From: an uncultured Nitrospinota bacterium | GTDB taxonomy: Bacteria > Tectomicrobia > Entotheonellia > J063 > CAVPRW01 | DNA length: 64,000 bases | Assembly (NCBI GenBank): GCA_963707985.1 | Contig: CAVPRW010000021.1 | Span: forward strand, 88,671-152,670 | Reading direction: 5' to 3' | In this document: piece after piece, positions 43,379-53,334 of the stretch | Numbering within the stretch: position 1 is the stretch's first letter | Layout: each line of letters opens with the position of its first letter | The notes under the pieces: generated by a model | Databases searched by the model: none | Told to the model about the DNA's origin: nothing | What the model saw: only the letters and a program-made list of their open reading frames with translations | Translations under genes and position numbers: made by a program

Positions 43379-44308
43379 TTACATCAGACACAAGAACTCG
43401 AACAGGAGGTTAGCTGCTAGTAAGGACGTGATCTCGGCGCTATCATAGGGGGGTGAAACTTCGACGAGATCGGCCCCGACGAAGTGGAGGCCTTGTAAGC
43501 CACGGATGAGAGCGACAATTTCCCGACTAGTGGGCCCTCCGACTTGTGGAGTGCCGGTCCCCGGCGCGAAGGCTGGGTCGACGACGTCGATGTCAAAGGT
43601 TAAATAACAAGGGGTTTCCTGGAATCGCCGAAAGCGCTCGATCACCCACGGCACTCCATGCTCGAAGATTTCCTCAGTGGAGATCCATTCGATACCCTTA
43701 CTGCGAGCAAAGTCAAAGTCTTCCTCACCGTACACCTGACCACGTAACCCCACTTGCAGCATGCGCGTGGGATCGATCAAGCCCTCCTCAATGGCGCGGC
43801 GGAAAGGAGTCCCATGCGAGTACTTCGAGCCAAAATACTCGTCCCAGGTGTCAGAGTGTGAGTCAAAATGGATGACGCTGAGGGCCGGATGATGCTTCGC
43901 CATAGCGCGTAAAATCGGCAGAGCGATCGAATGGTCCCCGCCGACACAGACCGGCCGCACCCCGTGGGTGAGCAACTCCTCAATTGCGACCTCGACGCGC
44001 CTAAAGGTATCTTCGATCGATAATGGATTGACGGGAATATCTCCGTAGTCGGCAATGCTATGACGCTCGAAGGGGTTGATTCTCAAGTTCGGGTGATAGG
44101 GTCGAATCAGGGCCGATTGCACCCTAATATGGCGAGGTCCCAGGCGGGCGCCGGACCGATAGGTCGTCCCCCCGTCAAACGGCACCCCCACGAGAGCGAT
44201 GTCCAACTGTTGAGGATCCGGGATGTGTGGCAAACGCATAAAGGTTGGAATTGCCGCGAACCGCGGCTGCACCAGCGCATCTAGCGGCTGAAATCGCGTT
44301 CGTTCCAT
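43379..44308 (-). CDS. speB: Agmatinase / ureohydrolase
   Basis: GVPFD, GGDHS, DSHSD, DIDVVDP..APGTGTP, EVSPPYD. The start could also be 44338. Confidence 0.9.
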   Translation of the reverse strand: MERTRFQPLDALVQPRFAAIPTFMRLPHIPDPQQLDIALVGVPFDGGTTYRSGARLGPRHIRVQSALIRPYHPNLRINPFERHSIADYGDIPVNPLSIEDTFRRVEVAIEELLTHGVRPVCVGGDHSIALPILRAMAKHHPALSVIHFDSHSDTWDEYFGSKYSHGTPFRRAIEEGLIDPTRMLQVGLRGQVYGEEDFDFARSKGIEWISTEEIFEHGVPWVIERFRRFQETPCYLTFDIDVVDPAFAPGTGTPQVGGPTSREIVALIRGLQGLHFVGADLVEVSPPYDSAEITSLLAANLLFEFLCLM

Positions 44309-44397
44309 ACCTCGTTGCTCCTCTGCTGTCTCATTCATACGGGCTGACCCCATGCCCAAGTAGGGCTACAGCGTTATTATAGTGGAACATCCGGGGT

Positions 44398-44426
44398 TTG
44401 ACAAACTTGAAATGGCGTGTTAGAGT
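44398..44426 (+). promoter_or_regulatory. Sigma70-type promoter
   Basis: TTGACA, 17 bp spacer, TAGAGT with an extended TG; divergent from speB. Confidence 0.65.
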
Positions 44427-44622
44427 TTTTTCCCCTAGACGAAGAAGATCGCTATAAGAGAGCCTCCTGCCGCCCAGTCTTGGGCCTCACTGTTGGCGTG
44501 GTAGCACACGAGATTACGAAATGCAGCATATCGGCCGTTCTTCTGAAGGGTGAGCGATCGCCCGCCCCATCCAGCCCGGGTCAGGGCTGGCGTTGGAAAG
44601 GAGGCTAGGAGAATTAGGAAGG

Positions 44623-44865
44623 ATGATAGAACGAGAGCCTCAGGAGAAACCCATCAAGAGAAACAAGGGGTTCATCTTTCAAAATGCCGATAAACGGCGC
44701 GCCCTTGACTTTACTGAGGGGCGTGATCCGAAAAAGTTCCTGCATCGACAGATGCAAGATTTCTCTGAAGGTGAACTGCAAGAATTGCAACACAAGATTG
44801 AAGCCTGGATGAAATCACCGCGGGTGGTGCCAACCTACCCGGAAACGGTCGTTGAGGAATATTAA
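44623..44865 (+). CDS. Small charged hypothetical protein (80 aa)
   Basis: Purine-rich RBS region, protein-like composition, downstream of a good promoter. No family recognised. Confidence 0.6.
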   Translation: MIEREPQEKPIKRNKGFIFQNADKRRALDFTEGRDPKKFLHRQMQDFSEGELQELQHKIEAWMKSPRVVPTYPETVVEEY

Positions 44866-45125
44866 GGCAGCGCCCTGAAGACGCGTGGGACGTTTTGCTG
44901 ATTATACGGTAGAAACCTAGCATTGATGCGGCAAGACGGGGGAGACACCAGTTGGTCGTTTCCCTCGCTTGCGTTAATGGGCTGCGATAGCCTTCGAGGT
45001 GGTTTTTCCGCAGCGCATTGCGGGAGCACAATCCCATCGACCGACCGGCGGTTCCTCCTGAGTCACAGTCCAAAGGTCCTGTGGCTCACCCCGGTGACGC
45101 TTCCACTACAGAAAGGACCGTGGGC

Positions 45126-45317
45126 ATGCGGTGGGTTGCCTCGATCATTTGGGCTCTGCTCGCAAGCTTGACCACGAATGGCTTCATTGCCTTTGTGATA
45201 GGCGGTCTTGACCACACCTGGGTGATTGTTGTGGTCAACCTCATGTGGCTGACGATATTTTTACGCATTTGCCCAACCATCTATGACATCTCCAGCCGCC
45301 CTTCTCCTCCAGGCTAG
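45126..45317 (+). CDS. Small two-TM membrane protein (63 aa)
   Basis: AGAAAGGA RBS, two hydrophobic helices. Confidence 0.55.
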   Translation: MRWVASIIWALLASLTTNGFIAFVIGGLDHTWVIVVVNLMWLTIFLRICPTIYDISSRPSPPG

Positions 45318-45503
45318 CTTTTTTCGTAGACTCGTTTAATCTCTCCCTCAGCCCAGGTAATCGCATCTTTGGTCGGCGTTCCTGTGACCGCCTTGGCATA
45401 TATATTGACGATGATATAGTTGTAGATAACGATTTGCGCATTCGGATCTGGGGTAGCCGGCCAGGTGTACAGATGAGAATATTGCCCAATCGTTTAATGG
45501 CTC

Positions 45504-46532
45504 CTATTTCAGATCAATGCTCCAGATCGGGTGAGTCGTAAATTTCGTAAATTTGGAAAATTTCCACCCGCCCATACTGCGGAGATTCACCACCGTATGG
45601 CGTCCACGGAGGCCTGCGGGAGTCTGGTGGAAATGGATTTGCTCAGCGACCTTCAGTTTCGAGGTCTTGGCGGTGATATAATGGCTCGATGGGTTCTGAA
45701 TCCAAGAGCCCTTGCCGGCGGTCATGAAGCGATTATTGCCGGCATTATCCCACGACAGTACCTGGGGTTCCATCGTTTCGTTGTAGAGAATCTTGACATA
45801 ATCAATCGACTCCGCCGTCTCTCTTGAGTTCAGGGCGATGGTGCTGCCGTCCGCCTCCATCACCTTGCCACCATGGCCCCAGAGGATCGAGAGCGTGCTC
45901 TGCACTGCGTCGGTGCATTGGCTGATCGCTACTCCGACGGGATGACCAAGGTTCGTTAACGGTTTCCCAGCTCGCAGCAAATCGTCCCAGGTATCCGGAG
46001 GTTTTTCCCCAACCTGGTCGAAGAGGTCTTTGCGATAGCTGCTTGGGAGAGAGATCCAGAAATAGGGGATACCCAACCAACGCCCATTGACGAAGGCGGA
46101 TTCAGGCCCAAATTGATAGAAGTCCCCCAGGTTCTTGATGACTGATTCTGCGACATCACTGACGTCGACCAGATTCGCCTCGTGCAGCCAGGCAACAATG
46201 AGATCCAGCTCGACCACGTCAGGGCCGGATTGAGTGGTGACCTCGGCTGCAAGTTTGGCGGGCATCTGCTCGCTGCGGAGATGATCCACCTTGACTGTGA
46301 CCCCCGCCTGTTTGGCGAACTCTTGTGCTTGCTCTTCAAGTTTTTTATCGGACGCGGGGACATAATGGGCAGTCGTTAGGACATTGATCTCCCGCTTTTG
46401 TGCATGAATGGCAGGGGGATGGTGCAGCGACAGCACTCCACCCAGCCCAGCACTGACACCAAGTGTCATACCGAGGAACTGGCGACGAGTCACTGTCTGC
46501 CATGTAGTAGATTGTTTGGTGTGCTTGCTCAG
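45504..46532 (-). pseudogene. Truncated carbohydrate-type ABC solute-binding protein (Tat signal)
   Basis: TRRQFL Tat motif, YRKDLF..PPDTWDDL, WDNAGNN. The RBS-adjacent codon is CTG, and the family-like sequence stops abruptly at about 340 aa. Confidence 0.65.
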
Positions 46533-46916
46533 ATTGCTTCCTTCCTGGTGGATCGGAGAGCCGTGTGTCAAGACAGTTGTGGAAATGTGTTGGGACACGA
46601 TATCCAAGCGTGCTTGTCCAACATGCACGGTGGTAATTTGACTCCTGCGGGATGAGGAGACGGTTAGGCGGGGAATGGCATCTCAAACCGAACGAGGGTC
46701 TACGCATCTCGAATAGGAAAGTCCGTAGAACTTCTACCAAACCCTTTCGGAGGCGTCGACTACTTTTTGCCTGCGTGCGGTGTTGCGGCAAGCGCTGCGG
46801 CGCCAGCTATTGGGGGGCCTCATGAGGTCATGCGCAGTCACTCGCCACTTGATGCGCATGCGTCAGAACGGTCTCAACGCTCGACTGCACTAGCATAGCC
46901 TCCAGGAGAATGATGC

Positions 46917-47816
46917 ATGGAATACCGTCTCCTCCCCCCAGTCTCGTTGGACGAATCTACCTTTGAGCGGCTCCTCCGTCAGCTTGATAACCCAACACAA
47001 CTTGCTGGTCGGCAGATGATCATCGATCTGGAACAGGTGCGCTTCGTCGACCCCTATGGCATGGTGGGGTTGTTGGCGCTCGCCCGTTTCCTTCGACAGC
47101 ATAGTTGTGAGCCCGTGCTCATGCTGCCACGCTCGGATGAAGTAATGAAGTACCTCGATCGCATGGACTTTTCCCGCCATGCCGAGCGCTTATGCACCAT
47201 CGATTTAACGACGCTCTGGCCAGATGGCGAGTACGCTCGGAGCACGCACTCGGATGTGCTGCTGGAAATCACCCCAATCGCCCGCTCAGAGGACATTCAC
47301 TACATTGTCGAACGCGTTCGCGAGCGTGCCCAAACGATTCTGTCCCAGAACCTGCACTATGAGCAGGCGGCCATCGATGGTTTTGTCGTCGCGCTTTCCG
47401 AGGTCTGTCAGAACATACCTGAGCATAGCGAGGATGTCGGCTATGTGGCAATCCAAAAATATTTTTATGGCCGGCGTCTTGGAAAAAATCTGGTCAAGAT
47501 CGCTGTGATGGACCTTGGCGTCGGCTTTCGCGCCTCCTTGGGCCCGAAATACGCGATCCGATCGACCGCGTGGTCGGATCTCACTGCCTTGCGATTGGCG
47601 ATATTCGAAGGGGCCTCGCGCTATGACGATCCCGGGCGGGGCCAGGGGTTGAGCGCTGTGCGGCGTTTCGTCGAACGCTGGCATGGCAAGCTGATGATTC
47701 GTTCCGGATCGGCGCGTGTCGGTCTTAGTCCTGCCTGGGATCGTAGCGCCACGCGTCAAAGCAAGCTCACCCCCTTCCCCGGGACTCAGGTGAGTATCGT
47801 GCTTCCCGAACTCTGA
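46917..47816 (+). CDS. STAS-like + GHKL/HATPase protein (RsbW/SpoIIAB-like kinase fold)
   Basis: N-terminal IIDLEQVRFVDPYG (STAS-like), N-box SEVCQNIPEHS, G1 MDLGVG, G2 GRGQGL. No His-phosphotransfer domain. AGGAG RBS. Confidence 0.8.
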   Translation: MEYRLLPPVSLDESTFERLLRQLDNPTQLAGRQMIIDLEQVRFVDPYGMVGLLALARFLRQHSCEPVLMLPRSDEVMKYLDRMDFSRHAERLCTIDLTTLWPDGEYARSTHSDVLLEITPIARSEDIHYIVERVRERAQTILSQNLHYEQAAIDGFVVALSEVCQNIPEHSEDVGYVAIQKYFYGRRLGKNLVKIAVMDLGVGFRASLGPKYAIRSTAWSDLTALRLAIFEGASRYDDPGRGQGLSAVRRFVERWHGKLMIRSGSARVGLSPAWDRSATRQSKLTPFPGTQVSIVLPEL

Positions 47817-48003
47817 TCCTTTCATCTTATCCCCCTAGGCTACCCCCACTATACCGGGTAAATCCTCTCCTGGCACCATACTGTGCTGGCTCCGGGACCT
47901 CCCATCTGCGTAGATTTCAGCCCCTCTCGCCATCGAGCCTTAAATGGTTTATACTGAAAATCAGCGGAGATAGACCGCACCCCATTTTAGAGGGCTTTTT
48001 TGC

Positions 48004-48051
48004 TTGACTTCTTCGGCAGCGCGAGTAGAATTGTGCTTGTTCAATTGAACA
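48004..48051 (+). promoter_or_regulatory. Promoter with an adjacent perfect 14-bp palindrome (candidate operator)
   Basis: TTGACT-16 bp-TAGAAT (48004-31), then TGTTCAATTGAACA (48038-51). Confidence 0.65.
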
Positions 48052-48060
48052 CGTAAAGGA

Positions 48061-48657
48061 ATGGGTGCTATGGAAACGACCACCACGCGGGCGATTTATG
48101 ATTTGCAGGATCTTATGGATGAACATGTGACCACCAGCAACCTAGTCACACGGGAGACCGGGCGTTCGATGCGCGAGTCCATCGAGCTCCGCCTGGAGCG
48201 CGAACCGGAAGGCACCGTTGTGGCGTTGGACTTCTCGCACGTGGGCATTATCGATTTTTCGTGTGCTGATGAGATCATCAGCAAGCTGGTCGCCCGCTTG
48301 CAGGGGATGGAGTATGGCGATAAATATGTCGTCCTCCATGGCCTGACGCCAACCCACGAAGAGAATATCACCGTCGCCTTGGAACGTAAGAAGCTTGCCG
48401 TGTTGGTGAGCCGCCCGGATGGCTCGTGGCGCTTGTTGGGGAGTTTGAACCCCTACCTCAATGAGGCGCTACAGTTCGTCATGCATCAGAAAGAGATCAC
48501 CGCTCGTGACCTGGCGGATGACACGCAAGTCGAAATCAGCCTGGCCAGTACGAAGCTGCTGAACTTGTTCAAGGCACGTCTGGTGCAACGCACGAGTGAG
48601 CGCTTGCCAGACGGAGGTCGGCAATTCATCTATCGTTCGTTGTTCGTCGAACGCTGA
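48061..48657 (+). CDS. STAS-like (DUF4325-like) domain fused to a winged-helix DNA-binding domain
   Basis: LVTRETGRSMRE..VALDFSHVGIIDFSCADEII, and C-terminal ITARDLAD..ISLASTKLLNLFKARLVQR..GGRQFIY. Confidence 0.72.
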   Translation: MGAMETTTTRAIYDLQDLMDEHVTTSNLVTRETGRSMRESIELRLEREPEGTVVALDFSHVGIIDFSCADEIISKLVARLQGMEYGDKYVVLHGLTPTHEENITVALERKKLAVLVSRPDGSWRLLGSLNPYLNEALQFVMHQKEITARDLADDTQVEISLASTKLLNLFKARLVQRTSERLPDGGRQFIYRSLFVER

Positions 48658-48746
48658 GGTGTACTGGTGACCGGCAGATGGCTCCCACACGACGGGCCAG
48701 GCCATTGAGTCCTGTACACCCATGTCTGTTGAAGGGAGAGTATCTC

Positions 48747-51083
48747 ATGATGAAGACGTCGCGACCCATGCAGGTAGGCCAATGGACAGAATCTGCCATG
48801 AAAGTCATGAAGGAGCGCTATTTAGCCCGCGATGCCCAGGGGCGACAAGAAACTCCCGAGGACATGTGCTGGCGGGTCGCGACCGCGGTCGCAGCCGCGG
48901 AGGAACAGTGGGGTCGCAGCTCGGAAGAAGTCGAGGCCATCGCGGAAGAGTTTTACAATGTTATGGTCGAGAACCTTTTTCTGCCGAATTCCCCCACGCT
49001 CATGAACGCTGGGACCAACAACGGCCTGGGCTACTCTGCCTGTTTTGTGTTGCCTGTAGAAGATTCCATCGAGGGCATCTTCGAGGCGATCAAGTACGCC
49101 GCGCTGATCCACAAGTCGGGCGGCGGGACGGGCTTTGCCTTCAGTCGCCTGCGCCCGAAAGGGAGTCAAGTACGAAGCACCGCCGGTGTGGCCTCGGGGC
49201 CGGTGTCGTTCATGCGCGTCTTCGATGCGGCCACGGAGCAGGTTAAACAGGGGGGACGACGACGCGGCGCCAATATGGGTATTCTGCGAGTGGATCACCC
49301 GGATATTTTGGAGTTTATCAACTCCAAGATCGAGGGAGGCATCACCAACTTCAACATCTCTGTGGCTGCTACCGATCGCTTCATGGAGGCGCTGTCCAAA
49401 GACCAAAGCTATGAGCTCATCGACCCCCGTACCAAACAGGTGACTGGTAGCCTATCAGCCCGCCAGGTGTTTGAACGGATTATTCAAGCAGCCTGGCAGA
49501 CGGGTGATCCAGGGATGGTATTTATCGACCGGATTAATGCCAGTCGCGCCAACCCCATTCCGGACATCGAGCAGATCGAAGCGACGAACCCGTGTGGCGA
49601 ACAGCCACTTGGTCCGAACGATGCCTGTAATCTTGGGTCGATTAACCTGGTCAAATTTGCTCATCCGAGTGATTTCACCGATCCGAATGGTCATGGTCAC
49701 GGTGATCGAGTCGATTGGGCGGCGCTTGAGCGTGTGGTGCGCCTGGCCGTACACTTTCTCGACGATGTGATCGAGGTAAACCCCTATCCGCTCTCAGCGA
49801 TCGATGAAGAAGTCAAGCATAATCGGCGCATTGGCCTCGGGGTGATGGGATGGGCTGACCTCTTGCTGGAGCTGGGAATTCCGTATGGCAGCGAGGAGGC
49901 ACTTACCCTAGCCGATCGGTTGATGGGCTTTATCGAGCGCGTTGGGCATGAAGAGTCGGCTCGTTTAGCGACGGAACGCGAGCCGTTCTCACGATGGTCG
50001 CAAAGCATCTATCGCCACGAGAAGCCGCTGCGGAATTCGACCGTGACGACGATCGCGCCGACGGGAACCATCAGCATCATCGCTGGGTGTTCCTCGGGCA
50101 TTGAGCCGTTGTTTGCTGTGGCCTATAGCCATATCGTGGGAAACCGGCACCTCACCTTCGTCAATCCCCAGTTCGAACGCCTGGCCAGAGCGCGCGGCTT
50201 TTATAGTGAAGGCCTGATGAACAAAGTCGCTGCTCAGGGCACCGTGCAGGGGTTATCAGAGGTGCCAGCCGATGTCCAACAGGTTTTCGTAACGGCGCAT
50301 CAGATCGCCCCAGAGTGGCACGTGCGGACGCAGGCGGGTTTTCAGCGTCACCTTGACAATGGCTGTTCGAAAACGATCAATCTGCCGCATACGGCCTCAG
50401 TTGAAGATGTCGGCAACGCCTATCTACTGGCCTACGAATTGGGCTGCTTGGGCATCACGGTGTTTCGCGATGGTAGTAAGTCAGATCAAGTCTTGCATGT
50501 TGGCACAGCGGGTAAAACCGCGCCTGCGGCCGAGGGGCCCGCAGTGGAAGGAGGCAAAGGGATGGCTGAGCCTCCAGCGCCCGAAAGCGCGCGCCAGGTC
50601 GTCAAGCCCAGGCCACGTAAGGTCCAGGGGGTAACGTATCGCGTGGCGACGCCTCTGGGCACGGCCTTTATCACGGTGAATACCAATGGTAATGATGAAC
50701 CTTTTGAAGTTTTCGCCAATGTGGGCAAGGCTGGCAGCGATACGGCTTCGGTTTCCGAGGCCGTGGGACGCCTGATCTCCATGATTCTACGGTTGCCCTC
50801 GCCGTTAACACCGACGGAGCGCTTGCGGGAGGTCGCGGGACAGCTCAAGGGCATTGGTGGCGGGCGACATCTGGGATACGGTCGCGCCCGTATTCGCTCC
50901 TTACCGGATGCCATTGCCCAGGTCCTGGCTGAACATCTGGGGATAGCCGAAGTCGAGGAAACCGCGTCGTCACAGCCCACGCCCGAAAGCGTTGGTGATC
51001 TCTGCCCTGAATGCGGCCAGGCCACCTTGGTCTTCGAGGAAGGTTGCCAGAAGTGTTATTCCTGTGGCTACACGGAGTGCTGA
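48747..51083 (+). CDS. nrdJ: Class II (adenosylcobalamin-dependent) ribonucleotide reductase with C-terminal TSCPD/zinc-ribbon region
   Basis: [50 protein letters not shown]-terminal [19 protein letters not shown]. No N-terminal ATP cone visible. Confidence 0.93.
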
Positions 51084-51136
51084 AGTCCACCCTCATGAGA
51101 CCATAGATGTGTTTCTGCTAATCCCAGCTCCCTTCT

Positions 51137-51163
51137 AGGCGTCCCCCAAACCAGGGACGCCTA
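51137..51163 (+). terminator. Hairpin after nrdJ
   Basis: TAGGCGTCCC...GGGACGCCTA 10-bp stem. Confidence 0.55.
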
Positions 51164-51266
51164 CCCTTCTCCCACAACCACCTGAACGATGCTACTGAGA
51201 TTGTCGGTTAGGAACAGAAGCGTACTGTCTCTGAGGCGGAGGTTGATTATTCCAGAGGAGGACAGC

Positions 51267-51554
51267 ATGGAGGGGCAACGTGCGGGTGATATGCTGATGG
51301 ACCTGGCAGAGGCGGCGGCAATTCAGGATGAGCTCGTCCAACATCGACTAGGAATCGAGTGGGCCAAAACGCTCCTTGATCGGCTATTGCGCACTTGGAT
51401 GCAATTGGAGACTCATGAAGAGATGGCATACGAAGATAAGGTGAGGTCTCAGGTCATCCTGGTAAATGAAGCCATGACGAGCCTGTCAGACCTTCACAAA
51501 ACGTTGGGACGCTTCAGTGTACAGCTCAAGGACCATCAACGGCGCTTAAACTAG
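51267..51554 (+). CDS. Small helical/coiled-coil hypothetical protein
   Basis: GAGGAGG RBS before ATG 51267, amphipathic helical composition. Confidence 0.6.
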   Translation: MEGQRAGDMLMDLAEAAAIQDELVQHRLGIEWAKTLLDRLLRTWMQLETHEEMAYEDKVRSQVILVNEAMTSLSDLHKTLGRFSVQLKDHQRRLN

Positions 51555-51627
51555 CGAAAAGGTCAGCTGAGCAGACAACCACAGAAATAACCCAAGTTGG
51601 GCCTCACATGTGCCGGAATCAGTAGCC

Positions 51628-51770
51628 ATGACGAAGCTAGAGAAACCAATTACCTTCGAGAGCGTCTTTGGAACCTATATTGTCGCCGAGTTGCTGGGCG
51701 AAGGTGGCTCTGGTCGCGTCTATGGAGGTACGTACCCAGACAGAACCACCTGTCGCCCTGAAAGTTCCTG
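51628..51770 (+). pseudogene. N-terminal stub of a Ser/Thr protein kinase
   Basis: LLGEGGSGRVY glycine loop, then VALKV in a shifted frame; nothing further is recognisable. Confidence 0.6.
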
Positions 51771-52445
51771 GTGGATCTTCCACACCTGGCCCCGCCACCC
51801 TGGCCCCAGTGCCCACCCAACCACCGAGGACGGTGGACCCTCGACCAACGCCCCCGCGAAAATGCTTCCCATGCGGGTCAGGCAGGATTACACTGCCCTA
51901 TGAGCTGGCGCGCGGTTCCCTTCAACAGCATTGTTGGGTCGGCGGCGCGCTACAACAACTCTCTTTCGTTCGGCGTTCGGGGGCACCAGAGGCAGATGCG
52001 TTGCATTTTCTGTAAAAAATTTCCGGCACTTCTACTGCAGCAGCTGAAGGCTAGCGTTCGGCGTCTTACAATTCTGGAGAGTGTTCAATTGCAGAGAGAT
52101 ATTAACCCTATTCATCTCTCTATCTCGTTGACTTCTCAAGAGAGTTGTTCTGCCTACCTCTCTAATTTTTAACACTCTCGTACGACAAACTCCGCGACGT
52201 ACTAGCCCCGGTCTCAAGCGATGATGTGCATGCACTCATCGTTCTTCACGAGAACGCTTTCATACCGCAAGGGCACTGGTGCCCGCAAGAGTAGTGGTGC
52301 CCAACCCTTCCATCGCGTGGACCCTCCCCGGCCTGCGGGCCTCCAGGGGCCGCTCATGTCAAGCGTTAGGCCTCGTGGGCAAGCATAAGTCCATAGGCAA
52401 GAATAGCCAGCTCAGGCGATCCAATCAGACGAAAGCGATCAACCG

Positions 52446-52709
52446 ATGGCAGAGCCCAGAAGACGGCGGTTACTCCAAAAACTCCAGTCGGGCTCCAAAA
52501 ACATCCGCTTTGCAGAAGCCGTCGCCTATGCGGGAGCTGTCGGATTTCGACTCGCGAGGATTCCCGGCTGTCATCACATCTACGTCCGTGCAAGTGTTCC
52601 CGAATTACTCAATCTCCAGAATGTGCGCGGACTAGGGAAGCAGTATCAGATCGAGCACCACCTCCAGCTCATTGAACGCTATAATCTTGCTATGGAGGAT
52701 GAGACATGA
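52446..52709 (+). CDS. hicA: HicA-like mRNA interferase toxin (possibly degenerate)
   Basis: KNIRFAE..GFRL.RI.GCHHIY..ELLNLQ..KQYQI pattern; the GSH motif reads GCH. Confidence 0.7.
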   Translation: MAEPRRRRLLQKLQSGSKNIRFAEAVAYAGAVGFRLARIPGCHHIYVRASVPELLNLQNVRGLGKQYQIEHHLQLIERYNLAMEDET

Positions 52710-52835
52710 AGGATCAGCATGTTAACGTATTTTACAGTGAAGACGACGAAGGATACATTGCGGCTATCCCTGACCTTCAGTCGTGTTCGGCGTTTGGCGA
52801 CACCCCCGAAGAGGCTTTGCAGCCGGTGCAGATGT
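52706..52835 (+). pseudogene. hicB: Truncated HicB-like antitoxin
   Basis: VFYSEDDEGYIAAIPDLQSCSAFGDTPEEAL, then loss of family pattern. ATGA overlap with hicA. Confidence 0.7.
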
Positions 52836-53334
52836 TCCGCCATGCGGAGGAGTTGGGGATGAGTCATGGCCCACCTCCTGCCCCACCAGGGCGTCCCACA
52901 CTGCCAACTCCCGGATGGCGACCTCAGGACCCGCATCCGGCGACGCCGCCGGCGCGTCCGGTGCGGGGGGGACGAGCGTCGGCCGGGCTCGGCGTAGCTG
53001 GTCGTGAGCCGGCTCCACGCAGAGCTGATGTGGGCTGCGCACCTGGCGATGCGTCGCCATGAGGGTGCCTTGACGATCGATCTGGACGCTCATCTCGCCA
53101 CCCTATTGAATCTCCACGGTTTGCCCGACAGGCGCGGCGGAGACCGAGTCGCGATTCGTCTCCGCAGTAACGAGGCCATCCCGAGCGACGGTTTACAGCA
53201 GGCTGGTCTGCAACACATAGGGGGGGCGGCCCCCAGGCGCGCGCAGCCGCTCCTTCCCAAGGGCCCCGGTAAGCTTGCGCAAGGTGCTGCCATGGATAGC
53301 CATGTTGGGCCTCAGCGGGAGAGAAAACCGGCCA

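What the first reader, a model, noticed from the sequence alone, without database searches (positions are those of the whole stretch)
46917..51083. Candidate partner-switching regulatory module controlling a class II ribonucleotide reductase
Seen: two co-oriented genes sit immediately before nrdJ. The first is a STAS-like + GHKL ATPase with intact N/G1/G2 boxes, no His-acceptor domain, and Pro where STAS domains usually carry the phospho-Ser (FVDPYG). The second is a STAS-like domain that keeps a Ser (IIDFSCADE) fused to a winged helix. This nrdJ shows no ATP cone. Known: RsbW/SpoIIAB-type GHKL kinases phosphorylate STAS serines, and bacterial RNR transcription is normally controlled by NrdR. 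Inference: a Ser kinase plus STAS-wHTH transcription factor regulates nrdJ independently of NrdR, possibly in response to nucleotide status. I know of no characterised system with this architecture.
Basis: partly seen in the sequence, partly recalled or inferred. Interest (0 to 1): 0.75.

Follow-up and report, generated by a model that had tools for sequence, protein, structure and literature searches.

The report
CapK/CapS switch controlling ribonucleotide reductase
The two genes are relatives of a DNA-damage switch described in 2026 for anti-phage genes (a kinase that turns off a repressor), but here the repressor's likely binding site sits in front of the only gene found in this genome for making DNA building blocks, and also before its DNA polymerase and a break-repair enzyme, which suggests the switch serves ordinary DNA upkeep.

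Summary
Gene B is a full-length homolog of the repressor CapS (E 1e-20 to PDB 9Z71/9Z72, phospho-serine aligned) and gene A a CapK-type kinase (Chambers 2026, PMC13373217), in which ssDNA activates the kinase and derepresses immune operons.

New here is the target. A palindrome, TTCAATTGAA (48040-48049), follows a sigma-70 promoter before capS-nrdJ; promoter plus operator lie between capK and capS in 26 of 28 related loci. This nrdJ is the only RNR found, and no NrdR was found. Matching sites precede dnaE and addBA in both genomes of the genus.

The nrdJ link is clade-specific: 0 of 77 more distant loci have it. Of 51 with an assignable co-oriented neighbour, 34 lead into rmuC, dinG, cinA(-recA) or addA.

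Best reading (0.6): an ssDNA-sensing CapKS variant that derepresses dNTP supply and replication/repair genes; nucleotide sensing is less likely. Binding, phosphorylation and signal are untested. The scan found housekeeping CapKS pairs before in other lineages; none of the notes listed involved nrdJ.

The parts
46917..47816 (+). capK-like gene: STAS + GHKL serine kinase, no N-terminal HTH; single copy
   Evidence: Pfam; 27% identity, E 4e-13, to the kinase of a Sphingobium herbicidovorans kinase-capS-Bil locus; model and fold search; one match in the genome
47043..47045 (+). codon of F43 (FVDPYG), invariant; candidate ssDNA-stacking residue matching VapK F54
   Evidence: 26 of 26; equivalence to VapK F54 read by eye from Appendix Table S2 and Fig. 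S6 legend, needing a +5 numbering offset; not tool-aligned
47412..47414 (+). codon of N166, N-box asparagine (CapK N218, VapK N160 equivalent)
   Evidence: invariant in 26 of 26; paper text
47940..47959 (.). second conserved non-coding element: either the -10 of an upstream promoter (TATACT) or a degenerate second operator
   Evidence: conserved in the 5 clade sequences that cover it; promoter scan; the G001 copy scores 9.0 bits, top 1% of upstream regions; unresolved
48004..48031 (+). sigma-70-type promoter TTGACT-16-TAGAAT for capS-nrdJ
   Evidence: 10 of 12 consensus matches; both hexamers conserved in 6 of 6 clade sequences; RNA-library contigs begin at 48058-48100 (weak hint)
48040..48049 (.). 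palindrome TTCAATTGAA, inferred CapS operator at the transcription start
   Evidence: invariant in 6 of 6 clade sequences; promoter plus operator between capK and capS in 26 of 28 loci; exact 10-mer in 32 of 77 distant loci versus at most 2 for 29 permuted palindromes
48070..48657 (+). capS-like gene: STAS + winged helix repressor; phospho-acceptor S64 at 48259-48261
   Evidence: PDB 9Z72 E 1.7e-4 as single sequence, 9Z72 and 9Z71 E 1e-20 as profile, serine aligned
48747..51083 (+). nrdJ, class II B12-dependent ribonucleotide reductase with TSCPD domain, no ATP cone; only RNR found in the genome
   Evidence: one PF02867 locus; no NrdD; genome 95% complete

Best explanation
An HTH-less CapK/CapS module wired to DNA metabolism. 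(1) Gene B is a CapS-family repressor (homology shown). [quoted passage not shown] (3) Gene A phosphorylates S64, which breaks the dimer and releases the DNA (shown for the Enterobacter pair, inferred here, about 0.85). (4) The kinase is switched on by ssDNA from damage or stalled forks (inferred from family and the invariant F43, about 0.65). (5) The same repressor acts in trans on dnaE and addBA, and is read by some integrase promoters (two genomes, about 0.55). The result would be more dNTPs, polymerase and end resection under replication stress, in a genome where no NrdR was found. Repression must be leaky, since this is the only RNR found.
For: CapS homology with aligned serine. Mechanism in PMC13373217. 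Operator conservation, including loci where other genes, often restriction-modification, sit between operator and capS. A matrix trained only on distant relatives ranks the dnaE site first in the genome (27.4 bits; 6 hits of 20 bits or more against mean 0.6, max 2, for 10 column shuffles) and first among 5779 upstream regions; addB ranks in the top 0.3%. Both sites are kept in G001 (25.4 and 18.7 bits). No site with at most 1 mismatch near dnaE in 15 of 15 class genomes in which capS was not found. Repair genes follow capS in 34 of 51 assignable distant loci, with recA further downstream in 2. RNA-library contigs from two runs bridge capS and nrdJ (a contig does not prove one transcript).
Against: nrdJ follows capS only in the clade at 78% identity or more (window, L001, L027, L028, L030). 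The trans sites rest on two genomes of one genus and were picked after the scan. No site before dnaE in 11 of 11 other capS genomes, and only 1 of 12 RNR upstream regions there has one, in AT-rich DNA upstream of an NrdR-box promoter. rmuC, dinG, cinA (4 copies), mpg, pcrA, dinB, recA2 and lexA2 of this genome have no site; recA1 and lexA1 only reach the top 3%. Two full lexA genes are present. CapK W68 is not kept (S10 here; by eye), nor CapS N145 and K151 (by eye). NrdR was also not found in 14 of 15 class genomes without capS, so NrdR loss does not require this pair. The capS promoter here has only the 10-bp core, not the two-part site.
Confidence: 0.6

Rival explanations
1. Only autoregulation matters: CapS binds its own promoter as in published CapKS, and nrdJ is a passenger whose level is set mainly by basal transcription; the distant sites are not functional.
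For: Published CapS binds the capK-capS gap. Some relatives have unrelated neighbours (galT/GT9 group 7 loci, convergent genes 6). nrdJ is essential, so tight repression is unlikely (inference).
Against: No promoter or terminator hit between capS and nrdJ on the + strand. The dnaE site scores higher than the capS site itself and is conserved in an 82%-identical region.
Confidence: 0.17
2. One reading: the kinase senses nucleotide status (ATP/dNTP) and the pair is a functional stand-in for NrdR.
For: No NrdR, ATP cone or NrdR box found. W68 is not conserved, so the ligand could have changed.
Against: The same kinase subfamily (46-59% identity, F43/P46/G48 invariant) mostly fronts rmuC, dinG, cinA-recA, addA or R-M genes, which fit a damage signal, not a dNTP signal. 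No ATP-cone-type sensor domain was detected.
Confidence: 0.1
3. The palindrome is bound by another regulator, most plausibly LexA (the window's copy fits TGTTC-N4-GAACA, a LexA box I recall for Verrucomicrobia), making nrdJ and dnaE ordinary SOS genes.
For: Two lexA and two recA genes in the genome.
Against: The central AATT is invariant and the outer G is not. The motif is absent upstream of both lexA and both recA as an exact GTTC-N4-GAAC. It tracks capK-capS across distant lineages.
Confidence: 0.07
4. CapS represses as proposed, but the kinase answers to another cue (cell cycle, redox, B12 or a partner protein).
For: The STAS domain of gene A could bind another ligand; the ssDNA residue match is by eye only.
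Against: The one tested CapK is ssDNA-activated, and the VapK F54A mutant loses function.
Confidence: 0.06

Closest known systems
CapK/CapS (Chambers et al., EMBO J 2026, PMC13373217; PDB 9Z71-9Z73)
   Same: Kinase gene followed by STAS-wHTH gene; catalytic Asn; phospho-serine; promoter with a palindrome in the capK-capS gap.
   Different: No N-terminal HTH on the kinase; W68 not kept; operator TTCAATTGAA rather than TTAA half-sites; downstream gene is an essential RNR, not an immune operon; no second promoter after capS; candidate sites elsewhere in the chromosome. The paper and 13 of its 14 supplement files have no 'ribonucleotide', 'nrdJ' or 'RNR'.
VapK of VapKSC (same paper)
   Same: HTH-less STAS-GHKL kinase with Phe in the F-x-x-P motif (VapK F54, here F43; by eye).
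   Different: The substrate here has a winged helix and no PIN toxin follows.
SpoIIAB/SpoIIAA and RsbW/RsbV partner switches
   Same: GHKL fold (TM 0.65-0.70 over SpoIIAB) and STAS serine substrate.
   Different: No sigma factor next to the pair; the kinase carries its own STAS domain; the substrate binds DNA.
NrdR (bioRxiv 10.1101/2025.03.28.645925, passages)
   Same: Repressor at an RNR promoter.
   Different: Unrelated protein; NrdR reads ATP/dATP through an ATP cone and paired 16-bp boxes; neither was found here.
ssDNA-sensing SOS-independent responses DriD and PafBC (search listing)
   Same: ssDNA as signal for a repair regulon apart from LexA (inferred here).
   Different: Those are WYL-domain activators; this would be a kinase that inactivates a repressor.

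Membership tests
CapK/CapS | STAS + wHTH repressor homologous to CapS | tested here: met
   profile E 1.4e-20 and 2e-20 over about 170 positions to 9Z72 and 9Z71
CapK/CapS | Conserved serine on STAS helix 2 (S54/S58) | tested here: met
   S64 aligns with the S58A position of 9Z72 and S54 of 9Z71; S/T in 62 of 66
CapK/CapS | STAS-GHKL kinase with catalytic Asn, encoded upstream | tested here: met
CapK/CapS | N-terminal HTH on the kinase | tested here: not met
   STAS starts at residue 11. The paper finds the HTH dispensable. The 313-aa kinase in L025, from a species listed in Dataset EV2, also begins near its STAS domain
CapK/CapS | ssDNA-stacking aromatic residue (CapK W68, VapK F54) | tested here: inconclusive
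   W68 position is S10; VapK F54 position appears to be invariant F43; both read by eye
CapK/CapS | Palindromic operator at the capS promoter | tested here: met
   26 of 28 loci; sequence differs from the published TTAA sites
CapK/CapS | Adjacent immune operon downstream of capS | tested here: not met
   downstream gene is nrdJ; the paper itself has 95 of 443 loci without a known immune operon
CapK/CapS | ssDNA-activated phosphorylation that releases DNA | not testable with these tools
   needs biochemistry
VapKSC | PIN toxin gene and STAS antitoxin without wHTH | tested here: not met
NrdR regulon | nrdR gene and paired NrdR boxes | tested here: not met
   no nrdR (genome 95% complete); 0 matches to a recalled box consensus at up to 3 mismatches in the window
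Class II RNR (NrdJ) | PRK08665 / NrdJ_Z family score | tested here: met
   1033 bits versus cut-off 961; 692 versus 400

The most novel reading that the evidence does not exclude
A chromosomal CapKS subfamily is a LexA-independent DNA-damage response run by a serine kinase. In distant lineages it fronts repair operons (rmuC, dinG, cinA-recA, addA, mpg-pcrA, dinB, nurA). In this Entotheonellia-like genus it has become a trans-acting regulator of dNTP synthesis, the replicative polymerase and AddAB, taking over RNR control where NrdR is missing, and mobile-element integrases eavesdrop on it. The immune-operon role would then be one use of a general repair switch.
Probability: 0.4. Interest if true: 0.8.

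Novelty: new variant of a known kind. Interest (0 to 1): 0.62.

Why it matters
NrdR is described as present in most bacteria and as repressing all RNR classes; how genomes without it control RNR is less clear. This locus gives a concrete, testable candidate. It also moves CapK/CapS from a local controller of defence operons to a possible regulator of core replication and repair genes, with a defined operator that can be scanned in any genome. A review of SOS-independent responses has no passage with 'kinase' or 'phosphoryl'. The parts are small and can be tested with the published E. coli reporter and Phos-tag assays.

Tried and rejected
General link between this pair and RNR genes: rejected outside the clade (0 of 77 loci, 0 of 12 genomes). 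Family-wide trans regulon: not supported; exact sites in six other capS genomes mostly fall in coding or unrelated DNA, dnaE 0 of 11, RNR 1 of 12. That one site, before nrdJ in G274, scored under 8 bits after GC correction and lies upstream of an NrdR-box promoter in a genome with nrdR; counted as probable chance. NrdR replacement as the family's role: 7 of 12 other capS genomes keep nrdR. Structured RNA or B12 riboswitch: none at E up to 1 in 44000-52000; no tRNA. Phage carriage: none in two viral scans. LexA box reading: see rivals. The exact 10-mer count alone (4 in 8.3 Mb) is within the range of permuted palindromes (0-12), so it is no evidence without position and conservation. The site at C17:270449 looks like chance. 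Lack of RNA-contig cover over the 3' half of capK is not used as evidence. No model of the kinase-repressor complex was obtained, so their binding is inferred from homology only. No direct alignment with the published CapK or VapK sequences was run. Literature searches for the motif (20 of 44 listed, none evidently on a regulator), for Entotheonella RNR, for nrdJ in a damage regulon and for later CapK/CapS papers gave nothing on this use.
Full report
Observation. Gene A (46917-47816) has a STAS domain and a GHKL domain with invariant N, G1 and G2 boxes and no His-acceptor hit. Gene B (conserved start 48070) is STAS plus winged helix. NrdJ (conserved start 48747) is a class II RNR without ATP cone. 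Close homologs are labelled Candidatus Tectomicrobia or Entotheonellia by NCBI.

What it is. The architecture is known. Gene B hits the CapS structures 9Z72 and 9Z71 alone (E 1.7e-4 and 8.5e-3) and as a 66-sequence profile (E about 1e-20, full length); S64 falls on the published phospho-serine. Gene A is 27% identical (E 4e-13) to the kinase of a Sphingobium herbicidovorans kinase-capS-Bil locus, a species listed in the paper's Dataset EV2. In Chambers et al. 2026 (PMC13373217) CapS is a dimeric repressor that binds palindromes at its own promoter and at the next operon; ssDNA activates CapK, which phosphorylates the serine and frees the DNA. I read parts 1-6 of 12 of the text (abstract to the start of Methods), the appendix, three of four parts of Dataset EV2 and passages of the review file. 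Term searches found no 'ribonucleotide', 'nrd' or 'RNR' in the main text and no 'ribonucleotide', 'nrdJ' or 'RNR' in 13 of 14 supplement files; file 11 was not searched, and 'Unknown' rows of the dataset do not name the downstream gene.

The kinase's signal. Read by eye against the appendix sequences, the CapK ssDNA residue W68 corresponds to S10 here and is not kept. The HTH-less VapK uses F54 instead; with the same +5 offset that places its N160 and K180-K181, F54 is the Phe of an F-x-x-P motif matching F43-V-D-P here. F43, P46 and G48 are invariant in 26 of 26 relatives. This is inference, not a tool alignment.

Operator. A promoter TTGACT-16-TAGAAT lies at 48004-48031, followed by TTCAATTGAA at 48040-48049; the hexamers are conserved and the palindrome is invariant in 6 of 6 clade sequences. 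Among loci holding both the end of capK and capS, 26 of 28 have promoter plus operator between them, also where 2-5 kb of other genes, often restriction-modification, are inserted. The exact 10-mer occurs in 32 of 77 distant loci; 29 permuted palindromes reach at most 2. Distant relatives usually have a two-part site; here only the core is present. No promoter or terminator hit lies between capS and nrdJ on the + strand. In four RNA-library runs, listed contigs begin at 48058-48100, and one contig in each of two runs (different studies) bridges capS and nrdJ. That fits one transcript but does not prove it, and DNA may be present in such libraries.

RNR context. This is the only RNR barrel found, with no NrdD, no ATP cone and no NrdR in a 95%-complete genome, and no NrdR box in the window (consensus recalled). 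NrdR was found in only 1 of 17 genomes of the class, while capS was found in 2 of 17, so NrdR loss is wider than this pair.

How general is the nrdJ link? It is not. nrdJ follows capS in all four loci at 78% identity or more that have downstream DNA (L001, L027, L028, L030; L029 is cut) and in none of 77 loci at 45-59%. Of these 77, 20 had no assignable downstream gene and 6 a convergent one. Of the other 51, 34 lead within two genes into rmuC (23, one by eye only), dinG/yoaA (4), addA-like (1) or cinA (6, three of them after pgpA and read by eye); labels were assigned by hand. recA follows in L074 and L080. The loci are not independent: 44 form one cluster at 80% identity; 10 or 11 of 14 informative clusters have such a neighbour. 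Of 401 genomes searched, 14 had capS; in 5 of the 12 outside this genus the next gene is a TIGR00375-like PHP protein (2, below cut-off), mpg then pcrA, dinB or nurA. That rmuC, dinG and cinA-recA are damage-inducible elsewhere is recalled knowledge. In a tree of 41 CapS rows the nrdJ clade is well supported and sits among these chromosomal loci, apart from the plasmid Bub, CBASS-like and Bil copies, whose long branches make their placement unsure.

Sites elsewhere. A matrix from 22 distinct sites of distant relatives gives its best hit in the 8.3-Mb genome upstream of dnaE (27.4 bits). Of 65 sites with at most 1 mismatch in G001, I examined 50; 23 aligned to this genome and 6 were conserved: capS-nrdJ, dnaE, addBA, an integrase, and two in coding DNA. 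dnaE ranks first and addB in the top 0.3% of 5779 upstream regions, with similar scores in G001. Two of the four exact sites in G001 and one of the four here precede integrases. Against this: two genomes of one genus only; no site at most other repair genes tested; none before dnaE in 11 other capS genomes; the 15 negative class genomes are different families, so not an independent control.

Mechanism and rivals. Most likely (0.6): CapS damps capS-nrdJ and probably dnaE and addBA; ssDNA activates the kinase; S64 phosphorylation lifts repression, raising dNTP supply and replication-repair capacity. Rivals: autoregulation with nrdJ as passenger (0.17), nucleotide sensing (0.10), LexA as the binder (0.07), another cue (0.06). 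Shown here: homology, conserved residues, motif conservation, gene neighbourhoods, absence of NrdR in the assembly. Inferred: binding, phosphorylation, signal, co-transcription.

Novelty. A new variant of a known kind: it works like CapK/CapS and gene B is a CapS by sequence, but it lacks the kinase HTH and the immune operon, has its own operator, and points at core DNA metabolism. Earlier notes of this scan describe housekeeping CapKS-like pairs in Gemmatimonadota and spirochetes (unchecked); none of the seven listed mentions nrdJ or an operator shared with repair genes. Searches for a printed report of this use found none (listings only), within a library that lacks most subscription papers.

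Noticed in passing
G000 C18:37409-40931 (L230) and C4:14387-17587 (L228): dnaE and addB are each split into two ORFs in this assembly but open in G001 (1177 and 1104 aa frames). The dnaE break is a one-base indel. Probably assembly errors.
   Followed up: partly
L006 1057-6694; also L038, L067, L100, L102: The gap between the operator-promoter and capS acts as an insertion site for restriction-modification and ATPase genes, which come under the same promoter.
   Followed up: partly
G000 C18:240672, C27:8314; G001 L119, L122: Operator-like sites upstream of tyrosine integrases, suggesting mobile elements read the host switch.
   Followed up: partly
G000 C15:2593, C6:87916, C9:8966: Three copies of a repeat next to similar ORFs, probably an insertion-sequence end, carry a two-part operator-like site of 19-22 bits.
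   Followed up: no
window 52027 (G000 C21:140754); C20:11473, C30:26242, C30:32820, C32:84214, C35:108573: A repeated element of about 60 bp containing TTCAATTGCA occurs at six places, likely a transposon end or MITE. Window position is approximate.
   Followed up: no
G000 C22:31695 and G001 L226: A conserved 20-bp element 121 bp before the recA1 match resembles the operator at 2 mismatches (top 3% only); could be a weak CapS site or the LexA box.
   Followed up: partly
L183 (G274): capK is followed by a short gene, the operator and a spore-photoproduct-lyase-like radical SAM gene; capS lies on another contig.
   Followed up: no
L026 5983-6555: A capS homolog without capK near a type I-F CRISPR-Cas locus on a Pseudomonas megaplasmid.
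   Followed up: no
window 45504-46628, 51189-53062: Flanks vary between relatives: a seemingly truncated solute-binding protein gene upstream, and short or broken ORFs downstream, some resembling a HicAB pair by eye. HIT and agmatinase genes further upstream are shared with L001.
   Followed up: no
G183, G336, G141; several class genomes: No class I/II RNR match in some near-complete genomes; they may rely on class III or monomeric class II enzymes.
   Followed up: no
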